This document shows, one piece after another, positions 1,905 to 23,505 of a stretch of DNA of 50,693 nucleotides. The notes under the pieces were generated by a model. It saw nothing but the letters and a program-made list of their open reading frames with translations. It ran no database searches and was not told where the DNA came from. The translations under genes and the position numbers were made by a program. The stretch covers positions 1-50,693 of the forward strand of contig JAISOH010000059.1 in NCBI GenBank assembly GCA_031275825.1, read 5' to 3'. The stretch's first letter is position 1. Each line of letters begins with the position of its first letter. Source of the stretch: Prevotellaceae bacterium. Its GTDB lineage: Bacteria > Bacteroidota > Bacteroidia > Bacteroidales > UBA932.

Positions 1905-4268
1905 TCAATTTTTTTCAAAACGCGATTGATTCGGTTGCAGGTAATTTTTTTCTTTATAATTTCCTATTTTCCACGCAAATAGAAAAGATATGTAACTTTT
2001 GTTTATATTTTTTCTTATACTGTATTGTCCGCCAAAATCGACAATCATTAAATTTGGCATCTGTCGGCGTAAAATATTGCCGTATTGAACTGTAATGTAC
2101 GATTGATTTTTCAATGTCAGTTTCAAAGCAGATGACAGGTCGAAATTATCACTCAGGTCGTACACGCCCTGAATTGCAAGCGATTGATACCTTCCGTTAA
2201 TCTGTAATGAAAAATTTGGAGTTTCTTTTGAAATCAAAAATGTATTGCTCACAGCAATCGCTCCAACATAATGCTTTCTGTTGAAAGGTGAATTATAAAA
2301 ATCGCTTTTTTTATCCTGTATCCTAAGTCCGTGAACAGATATGCGAGTATTGAACCGTTCTTTTATTTTAACAGGAATAATTATACTTATATTTGTAAAC
2401 AGCGAAAAATCATAATTTTCGTAACGATAAACAGTTTTCAGCGTATTTTCGTCTTGATGCGGAATTTGCGCAAAGTAATCAGGCATATAAGATGCTGCTG
2501 CAATAAATATATATTTTTGTTTGTATATGTAAACTAATTGACCATTATATTCGCTGTATGGTTTCAAAGATGGATTTCCTGCTGTTTCAGTATAAGAATC
2601 CATATACGTTGTTTGCGGATTTACAGCCCAGTAAGATGGATAATTTTTGTTTGTCGAAATATTAAACTGTAAAATATGAGCAGGTGGCGAAATCATATAA
2701 TTAAATATTATTTTCGGATAAAAAGTCCAGTCTTTCCAAAGGGTTGTTTTCAGTGTTTTTTGATAATATGCGGAATGAAAATATTCGATTTCAAATCCAA
2801 ACGTTGTTGATATTTTATTTCCTGCTTTATGTGAAGATTCAACAAAAAATTTTCCTGTATATTCTTTTTGCTCATTGTCTGAATGTTGCTCAATATTTTC
2901 AATATAATTTCCATTTTGCGGATATAAATATTCAATTCGGGTATTTGAATTATTAAGTCCGCCGCTCATTCCAAATTCCAGTGTCCAACTCTTTGATATA
3001 TTTTGCTGCTTGTTTGCAAATGCTTTCCATTGAGCAATATTTTGTGTTGAATTATTTAGAAAATCATCAGCAGGAATATTATTTATATTAGATGTGAAAT
3101 GGTTATTATCAGGCGCATTATAATTTGTAAACTCAGCGCCAACTGTAAAATTGTGTTTTGTATCATACTGCAAATGCAAATTATGCAGCCGGTTTTTGGA
3201 ACTGCTTTTATTTATGCTGCTGACATCGTATGTTGCAGTTTCTTCATAATGATTGTCGGCAAAAATATTTGATTTTAATCTGGCTGCTTTTGTATAATAT
3301 GAAAACGACAACTGACTTTCGTTTTCAAATGTATAATCGGCGCCCAATCTGAAATTAAATCTGTTGTAGTTTGAGTTTTTGTACAGGCTTTGGTCTATTT
3401 CAAAAATATTATTTTTTAATGTATGTCGCGAAAAAGTATTATATTTTTGCCAGTCTTTTCCTGTTGAAATATTAGCCAGAAAATCCAAAGTGAATTTTTT
3501 GCCTGCGTACAGAATATTTCCTTTGAAGTCTTCGGATGCATAATGCGACTGTTTGTAACCTGCGCTTATTTCTCCAATGATTTTTTTATTGCTGTCGGTC
3601 GAAAGCACAACGTTTATCAGCGAACCGCGAAAATCATATTTTGCAGGAGCATTGTACATTACATCAATATTTTTGACTTGCGATGCTGGAATTGTTTTGA
3701 GCAAAACATATATTTGTTCTGTTGGCATTGTTGTTGTTTTTCCGTTTATGATAATGCGCAGTCTGTTTGCGCCCAACAGTTCTATGCTGTTTTCGGAACC
3801 TGTTATGCCCGGAATTTCTTTCAAAACATCAAAAGCAGTCGAAACGGGTTTGTTTTTTATCAATGATGATGCACTGTACGACAGCGCAGAACCATTTATT
3901 ATTAATTGCGGTCGCATTGCTTTAACTGTTGCTTCATCAATAGTTTGCTGTTTTTCGGTCATTGTTATTGAGCCTGCATCGTTTACATTGTTTTCTATTT
4001 TCATAAACAGCGGATTGTAAGAAATATGCTGAAAAATCAATATCAAATCTGAAAACGGACGCTGCTTAAAACGGAAATTCCCTGAATCATCCGTCAATTC
4101 TGCTTTAATAAATACTGAATCTGCCGTTTGCATAATAACGGATACATTTTCAACAGGAACATTTTGGTCGTTAACAACTTTTCCTATAAGTTCCGGCGCA
4201 TTTTGAGCTTTTACCGTAAATACACTTATCAGTAATAAAAAGATAAAAACGGAATATAATTTTTTCAT
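1905..4268 (-). CDS. outer-membrane beta-barrel family protein (CarboxypepD_reg-like N-domain, plug-like region, barrel); module A
   Basis: 787 aa. It has a signal peptide (MKKLYSVFIFLLLISVFTVKAQ) and an N-terminal GKVVNDQNVPVENVSV...DDSGNF segment typical of CarboxypepD_reg. A plug-like IPGI...INGK stretch is followed by a long Y/N/S/F-rich alternating beta-strand region ending in an aromatic-rich C-terminus. Confidence 0.8.
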   Translation of the reverse strand: MKKLYSVFIFLLLISVFTVKAQNAPELIGKVVNDQNVPVENVSVIMQTADSVFIKAELTDDSGNFRFKQRPFSDLILIFQHISYNPLFMKIENNVNDAGSITMTEKQQTIDEATVKAMRPQLIINGSALSYSASSLIKNKPVSTAFDVLKEIPGITGSENSIELLGANRLRIIINGKTTTMPTEQIYVLLKTIPASQVKNIDVMYNAPAKYDFRGSLINVVLSTDSNKKIIGEISAGYKQSHYASEDFKGNILYAGKKFTLDFLANISTGKDWQKYNTFSRHTLKNNIFEIDQSLYKNSNYNRFNFRLGADYTFENESQLSFSYYTKAARLKSNIFADNHYEETATYDVSSINKSSSKNRLHNLHLQYDTKHNFTVGAEFTNYNAPDNNHFTSNINNIPADDFLNNSTQNIAQWKAFANKQQNISKSWTLEFGMSGGLNNSNTRIEYLYPQNGNYIENIEQHSDNEQKEYTGKFFVESSHKAGNKISTTFGFEIEYFHSAYYQKTLKTTLWKDWTFYPKIIFNYMISPPAHILQFNISTNKNYPSYWAVNPQTTYMDSYTETAGNPSLKPYSEYNGQLVYIYKQKYIFIAAASYMPDYFAQIPHQDENTLKTVYRYENYDFSLFTNISIIIPVKIKERFNTRISVHGLRIQDKKSDFYNSPFNRKHYVGAIAVSNTFLISKETPNFSLQINGRYQSLAIQGVYDLSDNFDLSSALKLTLKNQSYITVQYGNILRRQMPNLMIVDFGGQYSIRKNINKSYISFLFAWKIGNYKEKNYLQPNQSRFEKN

Positions 4269-4310: not shown

Positions 4311-6167
4311 TTATTCGTTAAATAAATTACCTGTATCTGATTGTTTGATATAACTGTTTTTTGCGACATCGTTTATTTTTTTCTGTATATGAACAACATC
4401 GAAAAAACGGCAAGTTTTTGATACTTTGCATACTTCGCAATCAAAACACACGGGAAACTCATGATATTGAAAAATTTTATCAGGGTCGGATACATCTGCC
4501 ATAACTTCGTTTGCAATATTATCTCCGTACATCCGACCTAAGATATTTTCAATTTCGCTGCATGAATAATTTTTGACATGTTTAAGATAAACATAATCGG
4601 ATATGGCAAAATAATAAGAATATGTTTCGTTTTTGTCCAATAAAAATTCATCCAAATGCTGTTTTGCCTTATCATACTGATTTGAAAAATAAAAAAGTTT
4701 GAATAACAGCAGATTTTCATCAATATTTTGTATATCTTCGTCATCATTATATAAAACATAATCGCATAAGTAGTTTGATGTTTTTTCATGCATACCGACA
4801 TTTGTAACGTGTTCAATTGCATTGGCAAGCGCAAGCGTTTCATGTTTGGTTATTTTTCCAATATGTTTCATATTTGAAAGCGCTCTGAAATCATAGGTAT
4901 GGAACAATTCATAACGGCGATGATATTTAGTTGTCTGGCTAATGCCCGGAATAATAATATAATACGCAGGAAATCCCAATATGGAATTGTTTCTTATGTA
5001 AACGTTATATCCCATTTTTTGTATCAATTCCATGCTGTATTGAATATCTTTTTGATTTGATAATCCAAGTTCAGGATTAAATCCTGTAAATTTGTATGAT
5101 GATGCAGTATGCAAAATAGACCTGTGCCAAAATCCGGTACTGTTTTTAATTATTTTGTTAAAATTTATATCAATGGCAACATCGGACAATATATCGCCTT
5201 CCCAACAGAATTTTAACGGTAATCCTCTGAAATGCTGTCCTTGATAGGCTTCTGTTACACATCTTTCCAGTGCAATATGAGGAACAAAATCAGACCCAAG
5301 TTTAAAATTATATAACAAATTTTGTTTATCTGTAAAAATTACTCCGATTACAGGTATTCCTTTTCCTAAAGAACAGTCTTTTACAATTATTTCATATCCG
5401 GTCTTTTGTTTTATATAATTAATTTTCTCATAAGCATTTGTTCCTTTGAATGTTTCTAATGGAACAGTCGGCGGCGTAAGTTGGTTGTAATATATTTCTG
5501 AAGCAGCATATCGTTCAAATATTTCACAAATACTCTGCAAAATCGCTTCTTCTTCGGTATTTCCTGCCGCCATACCGTTTGAGCCTGTTGCGTATAAAAT
5601 AAGGCGAACAGGAATTAATATTTCCTTATTTTCTGATACGGAATAAGATGGTATCATTAAACTTTCGTTTATTTGCAGTTTATCAATAAAAAAAGTATGT
5701 AAATATGATTCATCTTCTATATTGTATAATTTCATTAATTCTTTGCCCCAATGTTCAATAATCTTGTCGATACTCCAAATTTCCTCTTTCGGGTCGTACA
5801 TAAAATCCAAAGAAGAATTGTTTTGTTTAAGTTTTTGTACGTACAAAGAGTTTTGCGGTAAAGTTTTAATAAAACTATCAGTGGAATAAGCAAGCCGGTG
5901 ATCGCTGAATAATATTCTGTTCTGAATTCTTTCCATAAATTCGGCATAACCGCTTGCCATTGAATATTCAAACGATATTCCTTTGCCATTAGTGCCTATG
6001 TCTAATTTATCCAGATTCCGATTACCTATTATGACACGACAGGAATACATTCCGTTTGTTTCTCGGTGTTGATCTTTTAACAATACGCCAATACCCGAAA
6101 GAATAGATTGAATATTACGTATTGTTTGCTCCGGTGCAGATTCTTTATATTTTTTATATTGTTTCAT
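4311..6167 (-). CDS. YcaO-domain protein, long E. coli-like architecture (module A)
   Basis: 618 aa. YcaO signatures are GTNGKGISFEYSMASGYAEFMERIQN and GSNGMAAGNTEEEAILQSICEIFERYA. The C-terminal half is helical and TPR-like. It ends in a CX2CX2CX5C motif (CFDCEVCKVSKTC). Confidence 0.88.
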   Translation of the reverse strand: MKQYKKYKESAPEQTIRNIQSILSGIGVLLKDQHRETNGMYSCRVIIGNRNLDKLDIGTNGKGISFEYSMASGYAEFMERIQNRILFSDHRLAYSTDSFIKTLPQNSLYVQKLKQNNSSLDFMYDPKEEIWSIDKIIEHWGKELMKLYNIEDESYLHTFFIDKLQINESLMIPSYSVSENKEILIPVRLILYATGSNGMAAGNTEEEAILQSICEIFERYAASEIYYNQLTPPTVPLETFKGTNAYEKINYIKQKTGYEIIVKDCSLGKGIPVIGVIFTDKQNLLYNFKLGSDFVPHIALERCVTEAYQGQHFRGLPLKFCWEGDILSDVAIDINFNKIIKNSTGFWHRSILHTASSYKFTGFNPELGLSNQKDIQYSMELIQKMGYNVYIRNNSILGFPAYYIIIPGISQTTKYHRRYELFHTYDFRALSNMKHIGKITKHETLALANAIEHVTNVGMHEKTSNYLCDYVLYNDDEDIQNIDENLLLFKLFYFSNQYDKAKQHLDEFLLDKNETYSYYFAISDYVYLKHVKNYSCSEIENILGRMYGDNIANEVMADVSDPDKIFQYHEFPVCFDCEVCKVSKTCRFFDVVHIQKKINDVAKNSYIKQSDTGNLFNE

Positions 6168-6281
6168 GTTTGTAAATGTATTATATCTGTAGAAAATATA
6201 TCAAATTCATTTAAATGTAATCTTTCATAGAAATCTTCGTTAAATTTAATTGCTGTAATAATTTAGGTGGAATATCCTCAA

Positions 6282-7377
6282 TTAATGTATTTTGTATGTA
6301 CATAAGTAGTAAAATATATCGAAACAATAAACAGATGGATTGTCAAATCCGTTTATTTCCGAAAATCTATGCATCAACAATCCGCCGCCACAAACATCTT
6401 TTACAATACAATTTCTACATTTTTTACATAAAACATTATCTTGATGAGCATTATAGAATTTATAAAAGATATCTTCATTAATTATATCGTCTAATTCGTT
6501 GTACATGATATTATATTTAGCCAGCAGCAAATTATTTCCACAAATTCGTAATGTATCAACTACGTCAATATCGCCATTAGTTCTTATATCAATGACTCCA
6601 TTAAAATTTCTGCCAAATAATTCTCCTCCTGCATAATTTTCATTCCCTAAAAATAAATTGATGGCATCCTCAAACATTCGTATTCTTGGTTTGTTTTTGT
6701 TTCTATCAAAATACCATAAATCAAATAATTTTATTAACCATAACCCAAGTTTATTTGCATTCATATCAAACTTGTCGTAAGTCGAATCAGGAGGTAGGCA
6801 ATCCATATATGACACAGATATATCGTTAAAAAAAGTATAATACTCATCAGTGTCAATATTGGTATTGATAACAGACAAAATGGCCGGTATTATATATTTT
6901 TTTGAAATGTTGTAACCATCCATAATGCTATTATATGCAGCATGTTCGTTGGTTTTAAAAATTCTATTATTTGATGCTGTTTTATTACCATCAATGCTTA
7001 TACATACTTGTATATTGTGCATTTTAAATAAATTACAGAACATTTCTGTTAACAATGTTCCATTTGTTTGAATAGAATAATGTAATTTTGCAGATGTAAC
7101 AATTTTCTCTGCCAATTTAATAAATTCCTCGTAAAATGATTTTCCAACTATAAGCGGTTCGCCTCCGTGAAATATAATGAGGAATGAGTTTAACTTATTT
7201 TTTTTACAATATTGCTCTATCTTTTGTAATATTTTTTTTTACTATATCAAAATCCATAATATCAGGTTCATTCAGGTATGATTTATCTGTTTTGTTATAA
7301 ACATAACAATATTTGCATGAAAGATTGCATATGTTTGTTACTTTTAATATTATGCATTTAATAATCATTATAAACAT
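6282..7377 (-). pseudogene. radical SAM / SPASM-domain peptide maturase, split by a frameshift in an A9 run (module A)
   Basis: The N-terminal piece runs from ATG 7377 (or 7368) and reads MFIMIIKCIILKVTNICNLSCKYCYVYNK..., with CX3CX2C. It stops at 7204-7206. The downstream frame (track ORF 6282-7115) continues ...KILQKIEQYCKKNKLNSFLIIFHGGEPL...IQTNGTLL... and ends with the SPASM-like CKKCRNCIVKDVCGGG. Both frames are open only across the T9 run at 7232-7240, which is A9 on the coding strand. Removing one A joins them. Confidence 0.8.
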
Positions 7378-7398
7378 TATTTAATTACAATAAAAAAG

Positions 7399-7446
7399 TA
7401 CCTGAAATACTTTTAGATCATATTACCACATACAATATTTCAGGTA
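7399..7446 (-). promoter_or_regulatory. stem-loop between precursor A and its maturase gene
   Basis: Perfect 11-bp inverted repeat: TACCTGAAATA (7399-7409) pairs with TATTTCAGGTA (7436-7446), with a 26-nt loop. Confidence 0.5.
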
Positions 7447-7463
7447 ACTTAAACATCTGTGAG

Positions 7464-7661
7464 TTAATGAACATCATGATATGTGTGGAATATTCCTATA
7501 TAGGCATTATCTTGAGCCATCAACTGAGATGTGTCGCCGGTTAAATTTCCTGAGTTACTTGTTCCTCCTTTTATCTTACCTAAAGATCTTTTGTTTAACA
7601 CTTTGGAAACTTCCTTGCCATTTTTTTTAAATTCATCTAATGTTAATTTTACTTTCTTCAT
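7464..7661 (-). CDS. GG-leader precursor peptide A
   Basis: 65 aa. The Lys-rich leader is MKKVKLTLDEFKKNGKEVSKVLNKRSLGKIKGG and the core is TSNSGNLTGDTSQLMAQDNAYIGIFHTYHDVH. It is the first gene behind the conserved promoter cassette and sits directly upstream of the rSAM/SPASM gene. Confidence 0.75.
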   Translation of the reverse strand: MKKVKLTLDEFKKNGKEVSKVLNKRSLGKIKGGTSNSGNLTGDTSQLMAQDNAYIGIFHTYHDVH

Positions 7662-7683
7662 TACTTTTATTTTTTTTTAATTT

Positions 7684-7820
7684 TCAGCTAATTTTCAGGC
7701 ATAGCCTTTCTCCTTTTATTTGACAAAGGTACAAACATGTTTTTTGAAAAAAATACTTTTGGGCGTAAATAAAATTTCACACTTTGTATAATTTTATTTC
7801 ACACTTTCGGGTAGGCGTTT
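7684..7820 (-). promoter_or_regulatory. conserved promoter cassette, copy 1
   Basis: Shared with 18658-18744 and 23092-23230. Elements are the direct repeats ATTTCACACT at 7774-7783 and 7796-7805 (22-bp period), the palindrome AAACATGTTT at 7733-7742, and TACCTTTG on the minus strand (7724-7731), which matches the Bacteroides -7 consensus TAnnTTTG. The conserved 5' leader reads GGCTATGCCTGAAAATTAGC. Confidence 0.7.
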
Positions 7821-7825
7821 GATGT

Positions 7826-7885
7826 TTAGCCGTTTATGTCGTAATAATCATAATAGTCAGATAATTCAGATGTGTTAGAATACAT
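7826..7885 (-). pseudogene. 3' remnant of an XRE-type HTH gene (paralog of 23236-23505)
   Basis: It translates to MYSNTSELSDYYDYYDING*. The C-terminus of the intact gene is ...SEFSDLYAYYDIFN*. It sits in the same position relative to the promoter cassette as the intact gene does. Confidence 0.5.
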
Positions 7886-7959
7886 TTTCACGTTTTTTTA
7901 TTTATTCTTGACTGCCTGATGTTTATAGCCGCACATTTTTTTATATTGAATCTTCATTT

Positions 7960-10626
7960 TTAAATTTTCATATTGAATTTCAACATAATATATCCGGGAA
8001 TACGGTAAAGATAATTTTCTACGATAACATTTTCTATATGTGAAATTTCGCGCCAGCGTTTATTCGACAAATGCAACATATCGCTGCCTGTTAATTCAAT
8101 TCCGTATTTTTCGTTGAATTTGTATCGCACATTTGCATCCCAGTAATAAAAATTTTGTGTAATCTTGCCTGCATTATTATTTTCATAACCAACAGATGTT
8201 GATATATAAAAACGGTTTTTAGCGAACGATATTTTTCCCGTATAACGTTGGATATCCTGCTTGTTCGAAACTGTTGTTTTGTAATATGACTGTGAAAAAT
8301 TTGCATAAACAGATCCATTGAAACCCTGTTTGTAACCGCTTTCTATTCCGATATTTGCCGATGGCGAATAACTGCGATATTTTATTTTGTTACTATTTAT
8401 AAAATATAGATATTTATTTTGCTGATAATTTATTTCTATTCTAAAATTTATCGGAGCAAATAAAAATTTTTTGGAAAAAGATGACATCGCAAAAAATGTT
8501 TGTTTTTCAGGACTTGTAACTGTTTTGACTTCATTTGTCAATCCTGCACGGAAATAATCTTTTGTTGTTGTATTTTTGTTGGTTTCGTACGATATATTTG
8601 TTATCAACTGTAAATTTCTGAATTGATTTACGATTATTAATAATGATGATATTCTGTGTTTTACGTAATATAAATCTGTAACATTGTTGCCGTACATATA
8701 GTTGCTGTAATCATTTAGATATATGCTCGAAATCAAATTTCCTGCTGATAATGAACTGATATTTTTGCTATAAGAAATTGTTAATCGCTGCGAGTGTTTC
8801 GGTACAAATGAAAATTCAATCTGCGGTTCGAAAATAATTTTATTGTTATCTGCAAGTATGTTTACATTATCTTTGGATGTGATATTTCGCAGAGCGCCTC
8901 CAATTTTAAATCCAAAAACTCCTTTGTTTTTTATAAATTTTAAGTTTAAACTTTGGTCAAAGCGATTAAAAAAAATATTATTTGATAAATTATCATCCGC
9001 AAGTAATTTTTTATTGCTGTTTGGAATCTTATCATAAATACAGGATGTAAATACATTATACATATAACCTGCTCCAAGCGTTATACGCATAAAATACTGT
9101 TCGTTAAACCTGTGTAAATATGAAAAATCCAATGTTGTATTAACATTTTTTGTTGCACTTTCCTGTAATCCGTAAAACATATTACCTGTTTCGGTAAAAG
9201 GTATCGGCAATAAAAGCGAATCTGTTCGAAAGTCGTAATATGCAGGACTCATTTTATATGAAAAACTTGCATTTGCCGTTAAAACATTTTCATTTATTTT
9301 TTTCAGCATGGTAAAAGCATGACTTGTATTCAACGATTTTTTACTGTTTTTGTCAAATACATAAAAATCAATATTTTTTACATCCGTATTGAATTTTACG
9401 AAAGTGTCATCAAATTTTCCCTGATAACTGTAATTTGTTTTTTCTGAAAAGTCGTATGCTAATTTCAAAAATACACTGCCGATGATATTGTATTTTTTTG
9501 TTTTTTCGAAATTAAAATAATTTTCATTCGTATCAAAGAAAGTATATCTTTTTTCCTTATCGGCTCTCAATTTCGATAAATTCAAAAGTCCATAAGAATT
9601 TATTTTAATTTTTTTGTTTGGCTGTGACGATAAATTTACGGAAGTTAAGGCGTTGGTATTACTGTAAACATTAGAAATATCAGGTTGCAGTAGCGCTGTT
9701 TCCGTTTCGTCAAACTCAAACGAAAATACATCGGTATTGTTAATAAATTCATTTAATCCGCCCTTCATTTTCAGATAATCCATAAAATCCAAAAGCGATT
9801 CGCCTGTATTATTTGCCGAAAGCGTTACAGAACTCATAATTTTAGGGAATAAACTTATAATATTGTTTTTCGTAGAATATTTATCTTTTACGCCTCCTGA
9901 AACACTTAAATTTCCGGTAATTTTTCCCAAAAAACTGTCGTTTACTTTCACATTTACAGCAGTTTTTTCATGCGATTGAAATCCTCTTAAAATACTGTAT
10001 TCGCTGTAATTGGTAACAACTTCCACTTTGTCGGCAATGTTTGCAGGCAAATTTTGCGTTGCTATTTGCGTATTGCCCGAAAACAGATCTCTTCCTTCGA
10101 TAAGAACTGTTTCAACATTTTTTCCCTGTGCTTTTATTCTTCCCGATTTATCGACTTCAATTCCCGGAAGTTTGTTCATCATGTCGCCGAGAGTAATTTC
10201 CGAACCATCGGTATATGCACGCGGGTCATAACGTATCGTGTCGCCGATAATTTCAAAACCTTTATAGTTTGCCGTTATTTTGGCTTCATTAATCTTCTCG
10301 GCTTCTTCTTTCAAAATAAAATCTGTTTCCAAATCATTGTTGCCGAAAAACCATACATTTGTACTTTCTGCCGAATATCCTATGCATCTTGCTTCTACGC
10401 TGTATTGTCCGTTTTGTATTCCGTTTATCTGATATTTACCTGCTTCGTCGCTTGATGTATATTTTACAACCGCGGAATCTTTTGTTGTACGTAATGTGAT
10501 TGTGGCAAATGAAACAGGATTATTGCTGTCATTGATTATTTTGCCTTTCAGTTTGTTTGTTTGAGCAAAAATCACGTTTGAAGAGTAACAACAAAATATC
10601 AATATAACGACAATAAATTTTTTCAT
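7960..10626 (-). CDS. outer-membrane beta-barrel family protein (CarboxypepD_reg-like N-domain); module B
   Basis: 888 aa. It has a signal peptide and an N-terminal GKIINDSNNPVSFATITL...DEAGKY segment. A plug-like LPGIEVDKSG...IEGRD stretch is followed by a long beta-strand-rich C-terminal region. Confidence 0.8.
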   Translation of the reverse strand: MKKFIVVILIFCCYSSNVIFAQTNKLKGKIINDSNNPVSFATITLRTTKDSAVVKYTSSDEAGKYQINGIQNGQYSVEARCIGYSAESTNVWFFGNNDLETDFILKEEAEKINEAKITANYKGFEIIGDTIRYDPRAYTDGSEITLGDMMNKLPGIEVDKSGRIKAQGKNVETVLIEGRDLFSGNTQIATQNLPANIADKVEVVTNYSEYSILRGFQSHEKTAVNVKVNDSFLGKITGNLSVSGGVKDKYSTKNNIISLFPKIMSSVTLSANNTGESLLDFMDYLKMKGGLNEFINNTDVFSFEFDETETALLQPDISNVYSNTNALTSVNLSSQPNKKIKINSYGLLNLSKLRADKEKRYTFFDTNENYFNFEKTKKYNIIGSVFLKLAYDFSEKTNYSYQGKFDDTFVKFNTDVKNIDFYVFDKNSKKSLNTSHAFTMLKKINENVLTANASFSYKMSPAYYDFRTDSLLLPIPFTETGNMFYGLQESATKNVNTTLDFSYLHRFNEQYFMRITLGAGYMYNVFTSCIYDKIPNSNKKLLADDNLSNNIFFNRFDQSLNLKFIKNKGVFGFKIGGALRNITSKDNVNILADNNKIIFEPQIEFSFVPKHSQRLTISYSKNISSLSAGNLISSIYLNDYSNYMYGNNVTDLYYVKHRISSLLIIVNQFRNLQLITNISYETNKNTTTKDYFRAGLTNEVKTVTSPEKQTFFAMSSFSKKFLFAPINFRIEINYQQNKYLYFINSNKIKYRSYSPSANIGIESGYKQGFNGSVYANFSQSYYKTTVSNKQDIQRYTGKISFAKNRFYISTSVGYENNNAGKITQNFYYWDANVRYKFNEKYGIELTGSDMLHLSNKRWREISHIENVIVENYLYRIPGYIMLKFNMKI

Positions 10627-10652
10627 AAAAATCTTGCTGTTTGCGCTGTATT

Positions 10653-11351: not shown

Positions 11352-11378
11352 TGTTTTTTTTATTTTTAAATTAATTCA

Positions 11379-12996: not shown

Positions 12997-12997
12997 A

Positions 12998-13762: not shown

Positions 13763-13770
13763 ATAATAAT

Positions 13771-14682: not shown

Positions 14683-14708
14683 GCAAAATTAATAAAAAAC
14701 AGTTATAT

Positions 14709-15854: not shown

Positions 15855-15868
15855 ATTTTCTTATAAAA

Positions 15869-17890: not shown

Positions 17891-17945
17891 GATTTTGATT
17901 TTTAAAAAATTAAACATTAATAGATAATATAAGACCCCAAAGAAA

Positions 17946-18657: not shown

Positions 18658-18744
18658 TACAAAGGTAAAAACATGTTTTTCAAAAAAACACTTTTTGGCG
18701 TAAATAAAATTTCACACTGTGTATAATTTTATTTCACACTTTCG
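18658..18744 (-). promoter_or_regulatory. conserved promoter cassette, copy 2 (upstream of the LytTR gene)
   Basis: ATTTCACACT at 18709-18718 and 18731-18740, palindrome at 18669-18678, and the -7 box CAAAGGTA (plus strand) at 18660-18667. Confidence 0.7.
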
Positions 18745-18992
18745 GCATAACCGCTTGCCATTGAATATTCTATGCTCGTTCCTTTGCCATTAGTGCCTAT
18801 ATCAAATTCCATTAAGTTATCATTAGCGATTACAATTCTACAAGTAAAATAATCACCATCTTGTATAAATTTTTCGGATACAAATATACCAAGTTCACTC
18901 AGTATAGAACGAATTTTGTTTATAGTAATTACCGGCTTTTCTTCTTTATACGGTTTTAACATCTTATTCATACCATTATATTTTAAATCCAT
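18729..18992 (-). pseudogene. YcaO N-terminal stub (about 85 codons), truncated at the junction with promoter cassette copy 2
   Basis: It reads ...INKIRSILSELGIF...DIGTNGKGTSIEYSMASGYAE and then runs into cassette sequence (SVK*). The DNA around 18743-18810 closely matches YcaO A at 5940-6000. Confidence 0.8.
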
Positions 18993-18994: not shown

Positions 18995-21409
18995 TTATAA
19001 TCTTTGTTTTTCATCTGCGTTTGAAGGCAAAGATATTTGTGGCGTTTTGTTATACCAGTTGCCGAGCCTCCACGACAATGTTAATCTAAACATTCGCGTG
19101 TCATTATAATTTCGGTAAATTTGTTTAACACCGCCACTTATGTAAGTATATTCAGGATTTGCTGTTTTTAAAATGTCGCCGACCAAAAACCTCGCTTCAA
19201 ATCCCTTTTTACTGTTTGTGTAATTAAATCCAATATCTATTTTGAAAAAATTATTCATCGATCTGTAATTATATAAACCGGGAAATCTTTCTTCTAAATT
19301 GCAAACTATCTGAAATTTTTTGTTAATGCGAAATGTGTTATTTGCTATAACTGTGCTACTTATACCGTACATATCCGCAAACTCTTTTTTATTTGGATGA
19401 TATTCGGAATAATTGAAATTGCCCTGTAAAACTGTTTCCAGCCAATTAAACAGTTTTAAAAATTTATAGATACTGATTCCATAAATATTCACATTAAAAA
19501 AGTTGTCTGTTTGCTGTATCTGTTCCAAAATATTGAGAGAATCAAGAACTACATACTGTCCTGTTTTATCATCTTGACGAGTGTAATATATTTTTGTACT
19601 GAATGTATGATTAAGCACATAAGTTAATTCCAGATTTTTGATATACGATGGTTTTAAAAAAGGATTTCCCACACCATAACTGTATTTGTTGATGTACCAT
19701 TTAAAAGGGTCCAAGTATTGATATGGAGGTCTTTCTATTCTGCTGGCATAACTGAGTGAAATACTGCTTTTGTTATTCAGTTTATGAGAAATATAAATTG
19801 ACAGAAAAAAATCCGTATAATTATTTTTATACTGTTCATTCGTAATCAGAGAATTGCCGACGGTTTGAGTCATTTCTGAACGTATTCCTGCTTTGAAAGA
19901 CCATTTTGGAATGGTTTTTTCCATACTGTAATACACTGATTGCACTTCTTCGGTGTACTTGTATTTATTTGACTGGGAAGGATCTAATATATTGATATGG
20001 TCAACAAAGTTAAATAATTCATTATCAGAGGAAGTTTTAATAAATGACAGTTTAAGACCTGCATTAACCGTACAGTTAAACAGAGAAAAAACGAAGTCTA
20101 TTTTTGGAGTTAAAATATTATAATTCTGGCCTCCTTTTGTATAATAATTATCAGTTGTTGAATTTACACTGTTTATTTGCGTTAAGGAAGAAAAGTCTCT
20201 TCTTTTTTCAGTGTGATTATTGAGATAAGCCATACTTGCCGTAAAGTATGATTCCCTGTTCGGAAACAAATGCTTAAAAAACACTTCGGAATTGAATGTG
20301 TAATTATTTGTTATCATTGTTCCAGTAGAATACATAATTGAATCTGTCTGATTATTGGCAGAATTAACAAAAGAGGTTTGGTTTTCTATATCGATCATTG
20401 TTTCTTTGTTATGTAACGGTATTTGAAAATCAACAATAATATTTGAGTTTTTATTGAAATTATATCCTAATTTTACCTCTGCATCAGAAATATTAAAACG
20501 CCATTTTCTTGGATTAAATGTGCTTATTGTTTCATCGGGAAAATAATCGTAAAAATTAATTTGATTTAAGACTAATGAATTCCAATTGTTTATATTACCC
20601 TCGAAAAATATTTTTTCTCCGGTATAATTTACTAATGCAGAAACCATGTAAGATGAGTAAGTAGCTTGAACATAACCCGCTCTAAAGTATTCTTTCCAGC
20701 CCGGAAGAATATTTTTTTTAGTTACTATTTTAATAATTCCCGGATTACCTTCAGCATCGTATTGAGCAGGAGGCGAGGTTATTATTTCTACACTGCTTAT
20801 AATATCAGGTGGAAAAGAGTTAAGGTAGTTTAATAAAGACTGTCCTTCCAATCGTACAATTCTATCGTTAATATACACAATAACAGATGATTTGCCGAAG
20901 ATATTCATACTTTGGTCAGTGATATTTACAGTTGGTAACTGCTTCAAAATATCAGTGATTTCTTTACCTTTAGTTTCTACGTTTCCGCTAATGTTTACCA
21001 CAAGTCTGTCGGATTTAGCCTCAATTAATTCTTTTTGTCCAATTATTGTCGCCTCAGAAATAATAAGCGGATCAGGCTGTAAAACAAAATCGATTATGGT
21101 GTCATTTTTCAAAGCGAATTTATTGGAAACCGCAGAATAGCCTAAAATATTTACTAACAACTCACAATCGCCTGTTTTTGTCGTCTCTAAATAATAATTT
21201 CCCATAGAATCGCTTAATGCGTATTGATGATAAACAGATTCAAATAACAGTTGAATACTGGCAAATTCAACAGGCTCGCCATTTGAGTTTTTTATATTTC
21301 CTTTGATAATGAACGTTTGAGAGCGCAACTCATTCACTCCTGATGCAAATATTATAACAAGCAGTAACTTAAACAGTTTGAACATAATATGATTAGTTTT
21401 TCCATTCAT
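18995..21409 (-). CDS. outer-membrane beta-barrel family protein (CarboxypepD_reg-like N-domain); module C
   Basis: 804 aa. The likely true start is MFKLFKLLLVIIF at 21385. It has an N-terminal GNIKNSNGEPVEFASIQL...DSMGNY segment and a beta-strand-rich remainder. Confidence 0.8.
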   Translation of the reverse strand: MNGKTNHIMFKLFKLLLVIIFASGVNELRSQTFIIKGNIKNSNGEPVEFASIQLLFESVYHQYALSDSMGNYYLETTKTGDCELLVNILGYSAVSNKFALKNDTIIDFVLQPDPLIISEATIIGQKELIEAKSDRLVVNISGNVETKGKEITDILKQLPTVNITDQSMNIFGKSSVIVYINDRIVRLEGQSLLNYLNSFPPDIISSVEIITSPPAQYDAEGNPGIIKIVTKKNILPGWKEYFRAGYVQATYSSYMVSALVNYTGEKIFFEGNINNWNSLVLNQINFYDYFPDETISTFNPRKWRFNISDAEVKLGYNFNKNSNIIVDFQIPLHNKETMIDIENQTSFVNSANNQTDSIMYSTGTMITNNYTFNSEVFFKHLFPNRESYFTASMAYLNNHTEKRRDFSSLTQINSVNSTTDNYYTKGGQNYNILTPKIDFVFSLFNCTVNAGLKLSFIKTSSDNELFNFVDHINILDPSQSNKYKYTEEVQSVYYSMEKTIPKWSFKAGIRSEMTQTVGNSLITNEQYKNNYTDFFLSIYISHKLNNKSSISLSYASRIERPPYQYLDPFKWYINKYSYGVGNPFLKPSYIKNLELTYVLNHTFSTKIYYTRQDDKTGQYVVLDSLNILEQIQQTDNFFNVNIYGISIYKFLKLFNWLETVLQGNFNYSEYHPNKKEFADMYGISSTVIANNTFRINKKFQIVCNLEERFPGLYNYRSMNNFFKIDIGFNYTNSKKGFEARFLVGDILKTANPEYTYISGGVKQIYRNYNDTRMFRLTLSWRLGNWYNKTPQISLPSNADEKQRL

Positions 21410-22703
21410 GAAAATTAATATTATTGCCGCTAATTATAACAGGATGCAATTGAATGTACAATTTAATCATTGCACTCCAATAAATATTGTAAGTTTTACA
21501 CAGATATTCGGATGGTTCTTCTGTGTTTTTGTTTTCCAACCATTTTATTGCAAAACAAGAGCCGGAACATAAATATTTCATCCAGCAAACTTTGCACGTT
21601 GGATAATTATCTACCGGCTTGGCATAATAATTATTCTTGAGTATTTTCTCATAATCAATTCCTGTGTAGATATTACCGACAGATAAATCTATAGAACTGG
21701 AATGATAGGAACAGGGAAATATGTTTCCATCAATATCTATAAAATAACCTTCTTTTGATGCTACACATCCATTTTTATTAACCGCACCATAATGAATTCT
21801 TTTTAAGTCATTTATTATTTTAGTTGAGTATATTTTGTGATTGTCTTCAATCAATTTTCTGTAATTGTCAATAACTGTATCCAGTTGTTCTTCAAAAGTT
21901 TTAAGATCTTCGGTATTTGGTGAAAAATGATTGTCAAATGAATTTGTAGCGATAGTGAAAATAAAATGAATTTTGTTTTGTTCAAAAAATAAAAATGTTT
22001 CGACAAGATTTTTATTATCAGGGAGAACAACAGTTTTACATGAGAATTTAATATTATTTTCTTTTAACAAATTCATGTTATGAAATACATCTTTAAAACT
22101 TCCCTTACCATTATGATATATGCGAGATTCATCGTTAATTTTTTCATTACCATCCACACTTATATATATTGTAAACTTATTCAATTTGAAAAATTCAATC
22201 ATTTCATTTGTTAATATTGTTCCATTTGCAGTTAAATCAAAATCACATTTATTAAATCCATTTTTTTTGCACAGATAAGGTATTTGTTTTAATAAATTAA
22301 AATTTAAAGCAGGTTCTCCATACCCTGTAAAATAGAAAGTAATATGATTATTTTTTACATTCTTTAGAAACTTTAATATATCTAAAAACTTTTCTGTATT
22401 TAGTAGTTTTAGTGACTTTTTAGATGCAGAAACATAGCAATATGTGCAATCCAAAGTACAACCATGCGCTATATCAATTCCAATAGTATTGATGATTTTA
22501 CCGTCCATAAAATCATTTTCTATATTTGCTCTTTCATTTTTATCTATGGTTGCATTGGATTTTTCTTTTTCAGTTTTTATTTCCTGCAATACATTTTCAA
22601 TATTTTCACCTTGCTGTATTTTGCAAATTTCAAAATCTTCAACGCAAAATATGTATCCTGAATTATCAACATTAAACTGTTTATATGCCAAGTTCATTTT
22701 CAT
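21393..22703 (-). CDS. radical SAM / SPASM-domain peptide maturase (module C, intact)
   Basis: 436 aa. It has CTLDCTYC (CX3CX2C), GYGEPAL, and the C-terminal Cys-rich SPASM-like stretches GCVASKEG...FPCSY...CKVCWMKYLCSGSC. An extension of about 75 aa precedes the SAM cluster. Confidence 0.88.
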   Translation of the reverse strand: MKMNLAYKQFNVDNSGYIFCVEDFEICKIQQGENIENVLQEIKTEKEKSNATIDKNERANIENDFMDGKIINTIGIDIAHGCTLDCTYCYVSASKKSLKLLNTEKFLDILKFLKNVKNNHITFYFTGYGEPALNFNLLKQIPYLCKKNGFNKCDFDLTANGTILTNEMIEFFKLNKFTIYISVDGNEKINDESRIYHNGKGSFKDVFHNMNLLKENNIKFSCKTVVLPDNKNLVETFLFFEQNKIHFIFTIATNSFDNHFSPNTEDLKTFEEQLDTVIDNYRKLIEDNHKIYSTKIINDLKRIHYGAVNKNGCVASKEGYFIDIDGNIFPCSYHSSSIDLSVGNIYTGIDYEKILKNNYYAKPVDNYPTCKVCWMKYLCSGSCFAIKWLENKNTEEPSEYLCKTYNIYWSAMIKLYIQLHPVIISGNNINFHEWKN

Positions 22704-22881: not shown

Positions 22882-23067
22882 TTAATGATTATAACCAGGG
22901 TAACAAGCAGCGTAACAAGCATTATCAGTGTTTCCATCTAATAGTATGTCGCCTAAGTTCTCTCCCTTTCCTCCTCCTTTAAGTTTTTTTAGCATCTCGC
23001 CATTTAACGAAAAGTACTTGATTTCATTTAATTTGGTGCTTTGTACCTTTTTTGATACTTTTTTCAT
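22882..23067 (-). CDS. GG-leader precursor peptide C
   Basis: 61 aa. The leader is MKKVSKKVQSTKLNEIKYFSLNGEMLKKLKGG and the core is GKGENLGDILLDGNTDNACYAACYPGYNH. It is the first gene behind cassette copy 3. Confidence 0.75.
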   Translation of the reverse strand: MKKVSKKVQSTKLNEIKYFSLNGEMLKKLKGGGKGENLGDILLDGNTDNACYAACYPGYNH

Positions 23068-23091
23068 ATTAATAAAATTTTTTAATTTTTG

Positions 23092-23230
23092 GCTAATTTT
23101 CAGGCATAGCCTTTTTCCTTTTTTATTTTTTCACAAAGGTACAAACATGTTTTTCAAAAAAAATGCTTTTTGGCGTAAATAAAATTTCACACTATGTATA
23201 ATTTTATTTCACACTTTTACGTAAGCGTTT
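23092..23230 (-). promoter_or_regulatory. conserved promoter cassette, copy 3
   Basis: ATTTCACACT at 23184-23193 and 23206-23215, palindrome at 23143-23152, and the -7 box at 23134-23141. Confidence 0.7.
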
Positions 23231-23235
23231 ATTAT

Positions 23236-23505
23236 TCAGTTGAATATATCATAATAAGCATACAAGTCAGAAAATTCGGAATCTTCGGGAAATTTTTCTT
23301 TTTCCTTAAAATGTTTAAAGAAATTATAATCCAATACCTTTGATATTTGCAGCAGCAATGCAGTATCAATGCTCGAACGCTTAAAAATATCATAAACATT
23401 TTCGCGTGTTTTATTGATTAGCCTTGCAAATTCGGTAACAGTAAGAGAACTTTGATTTACCTTTTGCCGTATAAGGTTGCCTATGTGAACTTCATTTTTT
23501 TTCAT
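23236..23505 (-). CDS. small XRE-type helix-turn-helix protein
   Basis: 89 aa. LTVTEFARLINKTRENVYDIFKRSSID is an HTH-like stretch. The gene heads the whole minus-strand locus. Confidence 0.7.
   Translation of the reverse strand: MKKNEVHIGNLIRQKVNQSSLTVTEFARLINKTRENVYDIFKRSSIDTALLLQISKVLDYNFFKHFKEKEKFPEDSEFSDLYAYYDIFN

What the first reader, a model, noticed from the sequence alone, without database searches (positions are those of the whole stretch)
7464..7661. Two GG-leader precursors with unrelated cores that share aromatic/His-rich C-termini
Precursor A has the leader ...RSLGKIKGG and the core TSNSGNLTGDTSQLMAQDNAYIGIFHTYHDVH. Precursor C (22882-23067) has the leader ...EMLKKLKGG and the core GKGENLGDILLDGNTDNACYAACYPGYNH. 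The leaders resemble the Lys-rich, GG-terminated leaders of Bacteroidales rSAM-associated peptides.

The cores share only an (S/E)-x-NL-(T)-GD stretch and a C-terminus rich in Tyr/Phe/His (FHTYHDVH and CYPGYNH). Aromatic-X-X motifs are the substrates of cyclophane-forming rSAM/SPASM enzymes, so a C-terminal crosslink is a reasonable guess. What the YcaO would add is open; backbone activation, amidine, thioamide or macrocyclisation are possibilities. No C39 peptidase is present to cut at GG.
Basis: partly seen in the sequence, partly recalled or inferred. Interest (0 to 1): 0.65.

Follow-up and report, generated by a model that had tools for sequence, protein, structure and literature searches.

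The report
Two RiPP precursors, one frameshifted
Two small genes next to radical-SAM enzymes are real precursors of modified peptides from two already-catalogued Bacteroidales families. The histidine/aromatic tail they seemed to share is a coincidence: a one-base deletion creates it in one, and it is not conserved in the other.

Summary
Both ORFs exist exactly as described (7464-7661 and 22882-23067, minus strand). Both are genuine GG-leader RiPP precursors: homologues of each sit directly upstream of the same rSAM type in other Bacteroidota.

They belong to two different families. These were already listed bioinformatically as BGC7 (P. gingivalis/T. forsythia) and BGC8 (P. gulae) in PMC10352776. 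The complete operon is precursor, rSAM/SPASM, YcaO, TonB-like OMP, C39 PCAT, like the itf cluster.

The shared aromatic/His-rich tail is not a real feature.
- Family A cores carry a conserved [QN]D[NS]x-Y-x-R motif. This fits the Tyr-Arg cyclophane chemistry of the closest enzymes (YhhB, ChlB). A 1-nt deletion after ...QDNAY removed the motif from the window copy and created IGIFHTYHDVH. Its rSAM has two further frameshifts.
- Family C cores conserve D-x-x-C-x(2,3)-C beside a PapB/CteB/QhpD-like rSAM. That points to a thioether, not a cyclophane. CYPGYNH recurs only in the nearest homologue.

The C cassette's own YcaO is cut to 87 codons, and no PCAT is in the window.

Verdict: new, partly decayed members of a known, chemically uncharacterised kind.

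The parts
7464..7661 (-). Precursor A ORF (65 aa). The leader is residues 1-33 (7563-7661) and ends KIKGG. The core is intact up to ...AQDNAY; a 1-nt deletion at about 7499-7501 then puts the last 11 codons (IGIFHTYHDVH) out of the family's reading frame.
   Evidence: ORF. DNA alignment with L001/L002 shows the single-base gap. Codon comparison gives 3 synonymous to 1 non-synonymous change in the relatives' frame, against 0 to 5 in the window's frame. Relatives read QD[NS]xY-x-R.
7392..7445 (-). Hairpin followed by a U-tract between precursor A and its rSAM. Likely a partial terminator or attenuator.
   Evidence: strand folding z = -2.3 in the window and -2.45 for the orthologous stretch of L001. 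The stem sequence is conserved. Function is inferred.
6214..7377 (-). rSAM/SPASM maturase of cassette A (triceptide-synthase-like). It is a pseudogene with a +1 frameshift in an A9 run (plus strand T9 at 7232-7240) and a -1 frameshift near 6315.
   Evidence: Three-frame translation. tblastn with the intact 393-aa orthologue gives three pieces in different frames. DNA alignments A4 and A5. NCBIfam best match is YhhB. Best PDB match is ChlB, 9gm3.
4311..6167 (-). YcaO of cassette A, intact (618 aa).
   Evidence: Pfam PF02624, E = 3.5e-52. 86% identical to the L001/L007 orthologue. Best PDB match is E. coli YcaO, 4q84.
1905..4268 (-). TonB-dependent-receptor-like outer membrane protein of cassette A (OMP_b-brl_3 plus CarboxypepD_reg).
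   Evidence: Pfam. Same position in L001, L087, L091 and L092.
7662..7870 (-). Promoter/5'-UTR module A. It has paired exact GTGTGAAAT repeats (7774-7782, 7796-7804) and a TAccTTTG -7-like box (7724-7731). It includes a remnant of the 3' end of the HTH gene (7826-7891).
   Evidence: 83% identical over 155 nt to the module upstream of precursor C (alignment A1). The exact 9-mers occur only in the three modules. The promoter role is inferred.
22882..23067 (-). Precursor C ORF (61 aa), intact. The leader is residues 1-32 (22972-23067) and ends KLKGG. The core GKGENLGDILLDGNTDNACYAACYPGYNH carries the family motif D-x-x-C-x3-C.
   Evidence: ORF. Homologues P0004-P0008, L029, L031 and L037 have a near-identical leader and variable cores. 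An HMM built without the window sequence scores it 95.7 bits.
21393..22703 (-). rSAM/SPASM maturase of cassette C, intact (436 aa), thioether-type relatives.
   Evidence: Pfam Radical_SAM plus SPASM. NCBIfam best matches are PapB at 185 bits (cutoff 340), nif11-like rSAM maturase at 127.7 bits and QhpD at 125 bits. Best PDB match is CteB, 5wgg, E = 1.5e-24.
18995..21409 (-). TonB-dependent-receptor-like outer membrane protein of cassette C.
   Evidence: Pfam OMP_b-brl_3, E = 5.7e-72. Same position in L003, L029, L031 and L037.
18729..18992 (-). N-terminal 87-codon fragment of the cassette C YcaO. It is cut off exactly where a third copy of the promoter module begins.
   Evidence: ORF translation. 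tblastn finds 48% identity to YcaO1 residues 2-88. It closely resembles the N-terminus of the L003 YcaO by eye. Junction. The junction is colinear in Logan's contig of run X1.
23068..23280 (-). Promoter/5'-UTR module C, with GTGTGAAAT repeats at 23184-23192 and 23206-23214.
23236..23505 (-). Small HTH (XRE-like) protein upstream of cassette C. Candidate regulator of the GTGTGAAAT modules.
   Evidence: Pfam HTH_3, E = 2.4e-4, below the curated cut-off. Orthologue upstream of precursor A in L001 and a related HTH gene in L090. The regulator role is inferred.

Best explanation
The two ORFs are genuine double-glycine-leader RiPP precursors, but of two unrelated families with different chemistry. 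Each normally heads an operon of precursor, rSAM/SPASM, YcaO, TonB-like OMP and C39-ABC exporter (PCAT).

Family A corresponds to 'BGC7' of PMC10352776. Its cores carry a conserved [QN]-D-[NS]-x-Y-x-R motif. Its rSAM is a sister of the triceptide synthases YhhB and ChlB, which link Tyr-C3 to Arg-C-beta. The inferred modification is therefore a three-residue Tyr-x-Arg cyclophane.

Family C corresponds to 'BGC8'. It has an almost invariant leader and hypervariable cores that keep only D-x-x-C-x(2,3)-C(G). Its rSAM is PapB/QhpD/CteB-like. The inferred modification is one or two Cys thioethers, possibly onto the conserved Asp.

By analogy with ItfB, the YcaO would then activate a backbone amide (C-terminal amidine). 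The PCAT would cut after GG and export. The OMP would carry the product across, or back through, the outer membrane.

In this genome both cassettes are damaged.
- A 1-nt deletion right after ...QDNAY destroys the Y-x-R motif in precursor A. It creates the His/aromatic tail as an out-of-frame product.
- The cassette A rSAM carries two frameshifts.
- The cassette C YcaO is truncated to 87 codons at a duplicated promoter module.
- No PCAT is nearby.

The resemblance of the two C-termini is therefore coincidental.

Shown: ORFs, homologues, synteny, frameshifts, enzyme family similarity. Inferred: all the chemistry, the regulation and the transport roles.
For: Conservation next to the rSAM genes
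- A-type precursors lie directly upstream of rSAM_A homologues in L001/L007, L033, L086-L092.
- C-type precursors lie upstream of rSAM_C homologues in L003, L007, L029, L031 and L037.
- Complete operons with a PCAT: L003, L037, L087, L092. L091 has the same order, but its last gene runs off the contig with no domain on record.

Frameshift in precursor A
- There is a single-base gap against L001/L002.
- Restoring one T gives ...AQDNAYYRNIPHIS*.
- Substitutions are 3 synonymous to 1 non-synonymous in that frame, and 0 to 5 in the window's frame.
- Y-x-[RK] is present in 7 of 9 sequences collected here outside the window, counting L001/L002/L007 once. It is also present in the published BGC7 peptide (...QADSCYYRAIKYPV).
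- The family HMM aligns the window peptide only as far as residue 55. The repaired version scores 10 bits more.

Frameshifts in rSAM_A.

Independent assembly: Logan's contig of run X1 (17x depth) matches window 6200-8000 with 0 differences and 0 gaps.

Enzyme relatives
- rSAM_A orthologues score 272-285 bits against YhhB, 228-246 against FxsB and about 170 against XyeB. The best structure is ChlB, E = 4.6e-45.
- YhhB makes Tyr-Arg and His-Arg links and ChlB acts on YDR (PMC11002830, PMC11499958).
- rSAM_C scores 185 bits against PapB and 125 against QhpD. The best structure is CteB.

Family C motif and non-conserved tails.

Published clusters with the same gene set, and the ItfB amidine: PMC10352776, PMC11002830.
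Against: - No product has been observed for either family anywhere. All chemistry is by homology, and every rSAM score is below the NCBIfam equivalog cut-offs.
- The syn/non-syn test rests on only 4-5 substitutions.
- Read in the window's frame, L001 gives TGIFRPYRDVY*, which keeps G-I-F..Y.D-V and the TAA stop. This is an odd coincidence.
- Both assemblies come from the same reads. Raw reads were not available, so a systematic error cannot be fully excluded.
- The A9 run in rSAM_A could allow transcriptional slippage that partly restores the frame.
- The relation of the window's YcaOs to ItfB was not measured directly, because the ItfB sequence could not be fetched.
Confidence: 0.8

Rival explanations
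1. Both precursors are functional as written, and both receive a C-terminal aromatic (Tyr/Phe/His) cyclophane crosslink from their rSAM/SPASM enzymes. The shared tail is the common substrate feature.
For: The cassette A rSAM does belong to the cyclophane-forming group. Triceptide synthases accept His and Tyr motifs. The window tail contains F-H-T, Y-H-D and H-D-V triplets.
Against: - The tail of A is out of frame relative to all relatives, and its rSAM is frameshifted twice.
- The tail of C is not conserved, and its rSAM is thioether-type.
- A against C gives BLASTP E = 1.
Confidence: 0.05
2. The three indels in cassette A are sequencing or assembly errors. The organism really encodes ...AQDNAYYRNIPHIS and an intact rSAM, so cassette A is fully functional.
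For: One indel lies in a 9-base homopolymer. The neighbouring YcaO and OMP are intact.
Against: An independent assembler (Logan) gives an identical sequence at 17x depth. Three separate indels fall within 1.4 kb while 4.2 kb of adjacent coding sequence has none. Relatives show comparable decay: the C-type rSAM is fragmented in L001, and the precursor and rSAM are deleted in L035.
Confidence: 0.12
3. The frameshifted precursor A is a functional neo-core. The new His/aromatic tail is made and then modified in trans, by the intact YcaO, by rSAM_C, or by rSAM_A rescued through slippage on the A9 run. Frameshifting would then be a route to new RiPP cores.
For: The leader, promoter module and downstream hairpin are intact. 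The ORF still ends at a stop codon that is conserved in that frame. Long A runs are known from the wider literature to promote transcriptional slippage.
Against: There is no second example of such a tail. All five substitutions in that frame are non-synonymous. The second rSAM frameshift is not in a homopolymer. No expression data exist.
Confidence: 0.06
4. The ORFs are chance open frames in AT-rich intergenic DNA and encode nothing.
For: They are short ORFs in 26-28% GC DNA and have no Pfam or NCBIfam hit.
Against: Leaders are conserved at the protein level across orders of Bacteroidota (termite-gut Bacteroidales, Marinifilum, Porphyromonas). They always lie in the same position and orientation upstream of the same enzyme genes. 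The first 53 codons of A show 11 synonymous against 7 non-synonymous changes.
Confidence: 0.01

Closest known systems
'BGC7' of Porphyromonas gingivalis / Tannerella forsythia (PMC10352776, Table S5). Bioinformatic description only.
   Same: - GG-leader precursor whose core ends ...QADSCYYRAIKYPV, the same [QN]D[NS]x-Y-x-R motif as the A family (L001, L087, L091, L092).
- rSAM + YcaO + PCAT + OMP gene set.
- It is hit by the A-family HMM built here (28.8 bits).
   Different: - The leader is only distantly similar.
- The regulator is an aminotransferase-homeodomain (DNA-binding) fusion protein, not the small HTH or LytTR seen here.
- The window copy has lost the motif by frameshift, its rSAM is broken, and no PCAT is nearby.
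'BGC8' of Porphyromonas gulae COT-052 (PMC10352776). Predicted gamma-thioethers plus a C-terminal amidine; not tested experimentally.
   Same: - The precursor core ...EDRLCNGGCGPTAAW... carries the C-family motif D-x-x-C-x(2,3)-C-G and the leader element SLNG..L.KI.GG (50.1 bits against the C-family HMM).
- Its rSAM groups with CteB, Tte1186 and QhpD.
- YcaO + PCAT + OMP are present.
   Different: - The window core reads TDNACYAACY (C-x3-C followed by Tyr, not Gly) and ends in CYPGYNH.
- Its cognate YcaO is truncated and the PCAT is absent.
- It is driven by a duplicated HTH-associated promoter module.
itf cluster of Bacteroides thetaiotaomicron (ItfA-F; Clark & Seyedsayamdost 2022, as summarised in PMC11002830 and PMC10352776)
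   Same: The operon logic is the same: GG-leader precursor, SPASM rSAM, stand-alone YcaO, C39-ABC exporter, TonB-dependent-type OMP. It is the only experimentally characterised example, and it gives the precedent for what the YcaO does (a backbone amidine at the C-terminus).
   Different: ItfA (…SPWTITF) is unrelated in both leader and core. ItfD makes a Trp-C7 to Ile-C-delta link, which is neither a Tyr-Arg cyclophane nor a thioether. The similarity of the YcaOs to ItfB was not measured here.
Triceptides / three-residue cyclophane-forming rSAM enzymes (YhhB, ChlB, XyeB/XncB, FxsB; Morinaka laboratory)
   Same: rSAM_A is full-length alignable to YhhB (272-285 bits) and to the ChlB structure (E = 4.6e-45). 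The family A cores carry an aromatic-x-Arg triplet like the YhhB (Y-x-R, HNR) and ChlB (YDR) substrates.
   Different: - Scores are below every curated cut-off.
- There is one motif per core instead of repeats.
- The precursor has a GG leader, and the operon has YcaO/OMP/PCAT partners not described for triceptides in the papers read here.
- The window copy is a pseudogene.
Ranthipeptide/sactipeptide and QhpD-type thioether-forming rSAM/SPASM enzymes (PapB, CteB, QhpD)
   Same: These are the best NCBIfam and PDB matches of rSAM_C. The substrate has conserved Cys and a conserved Asp. From my own knowledge of the literature, PapB and QhpD link Cys to Asp/Glu.
   Different: Scores are below cut-off (185 against 340 bits). 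The Asp lies three residues N-terminal to the Cys (D-x-x-C), whereas PapB uses C-x3-D. The combination with a YcaO is also different.
   Same: Lys-rich leaders ending in GG, next to rSAM genes, in Bacteroidales.
   Different: TIGR04149 does not hit either peptide at E<=1. TIGR04148 scores 20-65 bits against a cut-off of 300. No pseudo-rSAM partner was seen.

Membership tests
Double-glycine-leader peptides processed by C39 PCAT exporters | Leader ending in GG, with hydrophobic residues at -4, -7 and -12 | tested here: met
   A reads ...L(-12)NKRSL(-7)GKI(-4)KGG. C reads ...L(-12)NGEML(-7)KKL(-4)KGG. The pattern is conserved in homologues.
Double-glycine-leader peptides processed by C39 PCAT exporters | Recognised by curated leader models (TIGR01847 / TIGR04149) | tested here: not met
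   No NCBIfam model hits either peptide at E<=1.
Double-glycine-leader peptides processed by C39 PCAT exporters | C39-peptidase ABC transporter encoded with the precursor | tested here: not met
   None is in the window. One is present in the relatives' clusters L003, L037, L087 and L092 (L091: last gene runs off the contig, no domain on record), and in L089 a few genes downstream. A copy elsewhere in this genome cannot be excluded.
Triceptides (3-residue cyclophane RiPPs), cassette A | rSAM/SPASM maturase of the 3-CyFE clade | tested here: inconclusive
   The best NCBIfam hits are YhhB, FxsB and XyeB, but all are below cut-off (272 against 445 bits for the intact orthologue). The best PDB match is ChlB, E = 4.6e-45. 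The window gene is frameshifted twice.
Triceptides (3-residue cyclophane RiPPs), cassette A | Conserved aromatic-X-X motif in the core | tested here: not met
   Y-x-[RK] is conserved in 7 of 9 collected relatives and in BGC7. The window peptide as encoded has lost it. Its other aromatic triplets are not conserved anywhere.
Triceptides (3-residue cyclophane RiPPs), cassette A | Aromatic carbon to C-beta crosslink in the product | not testable with these tools
   Needs co-expression with MS/NMR.
Thioether RiPPs (ranthipeptide/sactipeptide), cassette C | rSAM/SPASM related to PapB, CteB or QhpD | tested here: inconclusive
   PapB 185 bits (cut-off 340), QhpD 125 bits, SCIFF maturase 113 bits. CteB structure, E = 1.5e-24.
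Thioether RiPPs (ranthipeptide/sactipeptide), cassette C | Conserved Cys residues in the core | tested here: met
   Two Cys in a C-x(2,3)-C arrangement, preceded by D-x-x, in all 9 family members and in P. gulae BGC8.
Thioether RiPPs (ranthipeptide/sactipeptide), cassette C | S-C thioether in the product | not testable with these tools
   Needs MS (-2 Da per link, loss of alkylatable thiols) and NMR.
itf-type rSAM + YcaO RiPP clusters of Bacteroidales | Gene set of GG precursor + SPASM rSAM + YcaO + PCAT + TonB-like OMP | tested here: inconclusive
   The complete set is in relatives of both families (L003, L037, L087, L092; L091 likely, its last gene runs off the contig). The window has the precursor, rSAM, YcaO and OMP, but no PCAT. 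One rSAM and one YcaO are broken.
itf-type rSAM + YcaO RiPP clusters of Bacteroidales | ItfA-like precursor (C-terminal I-T-F) | tested here: not met
   ItfA (MTEVQEEQIQGGLKS...SPWTITF) is hit by neither family HMM. No ITF terminus is present.
itf-type rSAM + YcaO RiPP clusters of Bacteroidales | YcaO installs a C-terminal backbone amidine | not testable with these tools
   Literature precedent only.
BGC7 / BGC8 precursor families of PMC10352776 | Precursor sequence similarity, including the core motif | tested here: met
   HMMs built from relatives without the window sequences score BGC7 at 28.8 bits (E = 7e-5 at Z = 1e6) and BGC8 at 50.1 bits (E = 1e-11). The window peptides score 65.0 and 95.7 bits.
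GG-Bacteroidales system (TIGR04148-04150) | Precursor, rSAM and pseudo-rSAM match the three curated models | tested here: not met
   There is no TIGR04149 hit. TIGR04148 scores 20-65 bits against a cut-off of 300. No pseudo-rSAM was seen among the ORFs scanned.

The most novel reading that the evidence does not exclude
The roughly 155-nt module shared by the cassettes acts as a portable recombination handle. It comprises the 3' end of the HTH gene, paired GTGTGAAAT sites, the -7 box and the 5'-UTR. Through it, whole precursor-rSAM cassettes would be swapped, reordered, truncated and silenced within one locus of termite-gut Prevotellaceae.

The observations behind this:
- The cassette order is C...A here and A-C in L001.
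- In each genome the second cassette keeps only an HTH remnant.
- A YcaO is cut exactly at a module boundary.
- In L035 the precursor and rSAM have been deleted.

On this reading the frameshifted His/aromatic tail would be one snapshot of a fast birth-and-death process for RiPP cores, possibly even a usable neo-core.
Probability: 0.2. Interest if true: 0.5.

Novelty: new member of a known kind. Interest (0 to 1): 0.3.

Why it matters
It corrects a tempting but wrong lead: there is no shared His/aromatic crosslink site.

It also gives sharper, testable predictions for two Bacteroidales RiPP families that are catalogued but chemically unknown.
- BGC7-like peptides should carry a Tyr-x-Arg cyclophane made by a YhhB/ChlB-like enzyme.
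- BGC8-like peptides should carry Cys thioethers around a conserved D-x-x-C-x(2,3)-C.
- In both, this would be combined with a YcaO modification.

A cyclophane or thioether combined with a YcaO-modified backbone has not been demonstrated for these families in the papers read here. The best genes to express are the intact relatives (L001/L007, L087, L092 for A; L003, L037 or the window's own precursor C and rSAM for C). The window's cassette A is not suitable.

It is also a reminder that short precursor ORFs need a frame check against relatives before their cores are interpreted.

Tried and rejected
- Pfam and NCBIfam scans of the two peptides gave no hit, so family assignment had to come from collected homologues.
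- The word-indexed protein search with precursor A found only one relative. More came from looking up the genomic contexts of rSAM_A homologues.
- The metagenome scan with the promoter pattern returned only a chance hit in an unrelated high-GC contig (L006).
- No RNA run holds the locus, so transcription could not be checked.
- Only Logan contigs were available for the source run, not raw reads. The indels are confirmed at assembly level, not at read level.
- The sigma-70 and terminator consensus scans were uninformative. Bacteroidota promoters differ, and the hairpin loops exceed the scanner's limit. Folding was used instead.
- I first suspected that the Bacteroides loci L013-L017 were the itf cluster. 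Their precursors end in G[IV]PL, not ITF, so they are a different family.
- The primary itf paper is not in the library, so secondary summaries were used.
- I considered that L001 rather than the window carries the frameshift. This was rejected because L092, L087, L091, L033 and P. gingivalis BGC7 all share the L001 reading.
Full report
**Observation**

- A is at 7464-7661, 65 aa.
- C is at 22882-23067, 61 aa.

Both leaders end in KGG and have hydrophobic residues at -4, -7 and -12.

A lies upstream of an rSAM, a YcaO (4311-6167) and an OMP_b-brl_3 outer membrane protein (1905-4268). C lies upstream of an rSAM/SPASM (21393-22703) and a second OMP (18995-21409).

No C39 peptidase, intact or fragmentary, is in the window.

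**Are they real precursors?**

Yes. Precursor C has a family with an almost invariant leader, MKKVSKKVQSTKLNExKYFSLNGxMLKKIKGG, in metagenomes and genomes. Members come from termite-gut Bacteroidales and from Marinifilum.

In every locus with context, the C-type precursor sits directly upstream of an rSAM_C homologue, then an OMP, then a YcaO. L003 and L037 add a C39 PCAT.

Precursor A had only one close homologue by direct search. Looking up the contexts of homologues of its rSAM produced eight more peptides. They share the leader MKKVKLSLxxLxxNxxxIxxxLxKRxLxxIKGG and always lie immediately upstream of the rSAM.
- L087 and L092 have the full set of precursor, rSAM, YcaO, OMP and PCAT.
- L091 has the same order, but its last gene runs off the contig and carries no domain record.

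**The tail of precursor A is a frameshift product**

DNA alignment with the orthologue in L001/L002 shows that the window lacks one base right after ...GCC TAT (about 7499-7501).

| Sequence | Reading |
|---|---|
| Relatives | ...AQDNAYYRNIPPIS* |
| Window as encoded | ...AQDNAYIGIFHTYHDVH* |
| Window with one T restored | ...AQDNAYYRNIPHIS* |

Four lines of evidence support the relatives' frame.
- Downstream of the indel, the substitutions between the two genomes are 3 synonymous to 1 non-synonymous in the relatives' frame. They are 0 to 5 in the window's frame. The upstream 53 codons show 11 to 7.
- More distant family members decide the question:
  - L092 ...KQDNAYVRNIVVPPTR
  - L091 ...AQDSCYSRAIVMQ
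  - L087 ...QQDSCYYRACRT...
  - L033 ...NDSIYYRRVVP...
  - L089 ...STYVRRLPPP...
  - L088 ...STYVKH
- The published P. gingivalis 'BGC7' peptide ends ...QADSCYYRAIKYPV.
- An HMM built without the window sequence aligns the window peptide only up to residue 55. It scores the repaired version 10 bits higher.

The rSAM gene next to it is also broken.
- A +1 frameshift in an A9 run (plus-strand T9 at 7232-7240) separates the CxxxCxxC N-terminus from the body.
- A -1 frameshift lies near 6315.

Logan's independent assembly of the source run (termite gut metagenome, 17x) reproduces window 6200-8000 without a single difference. It is colinear with the window out to about 23.1 kb. The indels are therefore not an artefact of one assembler. 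Raw reads could not be inspected.

**The tail of precursor C is not a family feature**

Only the nearest homologue (P0004, 84% identical) keeps CYPNYNH. The others end GATAAFVNGSTAN, GNPAWYADDDNNS, GTNAGLLSPVLK, GPDKSWSGH and so on.

What the family conserves is D-x-x-C-x(2,3)-C, usually followed by Gly. The same motif is in the P. gulae 'BGC8' peptide...EDRLCNGGCGPTAAW....

A against C gives BLASTP E = 1.0. The (S/E)-x-NL-GD stretch is conserved in neither family. The 'shared C-termini' are coincidental.

**Likely mechanism**

*Cassette A.* Intact rSAM_A orthologues match the cyclophane-forming maturases best.

| Model | Score (bits) | Cut-off (bits) |
|---|---|---|
| YhhB | 272-285 | 445 |
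| FxsB | 228-246 | 370 |
| XyeB | about 170 | 450 |

The best solved structure is the triceptide synthase ChlB, E = 4.6e-45.

YhhB links Tyr-C3 or His-C2 to Arg-C-beta, and ChlB's native motif is YDR (PMC11002830, PMC11499958). The conserved Y-x-R of family A fits this chemistry precisely. A single Tyr-x-Arg cyclophane is the best inference for intact members.

*Cassette C.* rSAM_C matches PapB best (185 bits; cut-off 340), then QhpD, sulfatase and SCIFF maturases. Its best structure is CteB. With two invariant Cys and an invariant Asp three residues upstream, Cys thioether formation is the best inference. The link may go onto that Asp, as in PapB and QhpD by my knowledge of the literature.

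*The YcaOs.* They are stand-alone and E. coli-YcaO-like. The only characterised YcaO in this kind of operon, ItfB, makes a C-terminal backbone amidine (PMC11002830, PMC10352776). That is the working hypothesis, at low confidence.

*Other steps.* In complete clusters a PCAT explains GG cleavage and export. The OMP probably handles outer-membrane passage. Each precursor is followed by a hairpin and a U-tract (z = -2.3 to -3.6), consistent with attenuation between the precursor and the enzyme genes.

**State of the locus**

Both cassettes are headed by a duplicated module (83% identical over 155 nt). It contains two exact GTGTGAAAT repeats 22 nt apart and a TAccTTTG box.
- Upstream of C lies a complete 89-aa HTH gene.
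- Upstream of A only its last roughly 20 codons remain.
- A third copy of the module cuts the cassette C YcaO after 87 codons (18729-18992). It leads into a LytTR gene and an unrelated YcaO/M48/ABC block.

In the related MAG (L001/L007) the order is A then C. There the C-type rSAM is fragmented. In L035 the module is followed directly by the tail of rSAM_C, with no precursor.

These termite-gut loci therefore look recombinogenic and frequently decayed.

**Comparison with what is known**

The gene set matches three published clusters:
- the experimentally studied itf cluster of B. thetaiotaomicron;
- 'BGC7' of PMC10352776 (P. gingivalis/T. forsythia);
- 'BGC8' of PMC10352776 (P. gulae).

The BGC7 and BGC8 precursors are recognisably the A and C families.

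The finding is thus a pair of new, partly degraded members of known but chemically uncharacterised families. The headline feature of the finding is not supported.

**Scores**

Interest is 0.3. The families themselves remain worthwhile targets, but this window's copies are not the ones to study.

Noticed in passing
window 18236-18585 (-): A LytTR-domain gene is split into two ORFs (18424-18585 and 18236-18487). The frameshift lies in a (TA)n run. The gene sits right after the third copy of the GTGTGAAAT promoter module. Intact 115-aa LytTR genes precede C-type precursors in L003-L005, and a LytTR gene (78-aa product as called) precedes an A-type precursor in L086.
   Followed up: partly
window 18183-18231 (-); L003 757-805: Three exact CACTTAT repeats at 21-nt spacing lie just downstream of the LytTR gene, with none expected by chance. 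The same triplet at the same spacing lies between the LytTR gene and the precursor in L003. It is a candidate LytTR binding site.
   Followed up: partly
window 17774-18059 (-): Two paralogous small ORFs lie directly upstream of a third, divergent YcaO (15869-17704). They read MKYFTNYEDSS...LAPILATLLRFLLFHENRSLI and MKYFTQEEEHE...PILLLMAASAAPAYFHFQNRSVI. They have no GG leader. They could be YcaO substrates, signalling peptides or small membrane proteins.
   Followed up: no
window 7960-17704 (-): A block sits between the two cassettes: YcaO2, an M48 metalloprotease, two ABC ATPases with ABC-2 permease-like proteins, a GLPGLI-family protein and a CarboxypepD_reg OMP. YcaO2-like proteins recur in very different phyla in the genome scan (for example L044, L046, L057, L074, L085). 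This may be a separate peptide system.
   Followed up: no
window 137-1357 (-): A tyrosine integrase gene flanks cassette A. Together with the low GC of 26-33% over 1-24 kb, against 35-42% in the right half, this suggests the whole RiPP region may be a mobile or recently acquired island.
   Followed up: no
L009, L010, L019, L020, L022, L024-L026, L034 (Tannerella forsythia ATCC 43037): Another GG-leader peptide family, with the core Y.GGTLxE[IV][IV]VTP, lies immediately upstream of the YcaO. Most of these loci then have an OMP and a PCAT. No rSAM homologous to rSAM_A or rSAM_C was detected nearby.
   Followed up: no
L013-L015, L017 (Bacteroides spp.): GG-leader peptides ending in ...G[IV]PL or ...EEVPL (for example MIMRTESMINELEGKLTAEEMEGVNGGLAVPPLAPMFIDPDGIPL) lie upstream of YcaO, OMP, PCAT and a roughly 436-aa protein. 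They are distinct from ItfA.
   Followed up: no
L086, L088, L089, L090: These A-type precursor and rSAM pairs have no YcaO. Instead they are followed by a roughly 345-aa esterase/hydrolase-like gene (cut to 108 aa at the contig end in L090). L089 also has a PCAT and an HlyD-like protein. The L086 and L090 cores are Pro/Tyr-rich and lack Y-x-R.
   Followed up: no
L035 5009-5561; L001 16568-17873: Relatives show decay too. In L035 the HTH gene and promoter module run straight into the last roughly 50 codons of rSAM_C, so the precursor and most of the rSAM are deleted. In L001/L007 the C-type rSAM is broken into three ORFs.
   Followed up: partly
window 37987-42214 (+): A chain of five abutting or overlapping ORFs, two of which carry RHS repeats. 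It looks like a fragmented RHS/YD toxin-type gene. LRR and Sel1-repeat proteins follow (42338-45938).
   Followed up: no
window 25395-28430 (+): A 1011-aa reprolysin-like M12 metalloprotease with Ig-like, cadherin-like and MBG domains and a CHU_C type IX secretion signal.
   Followed up: no
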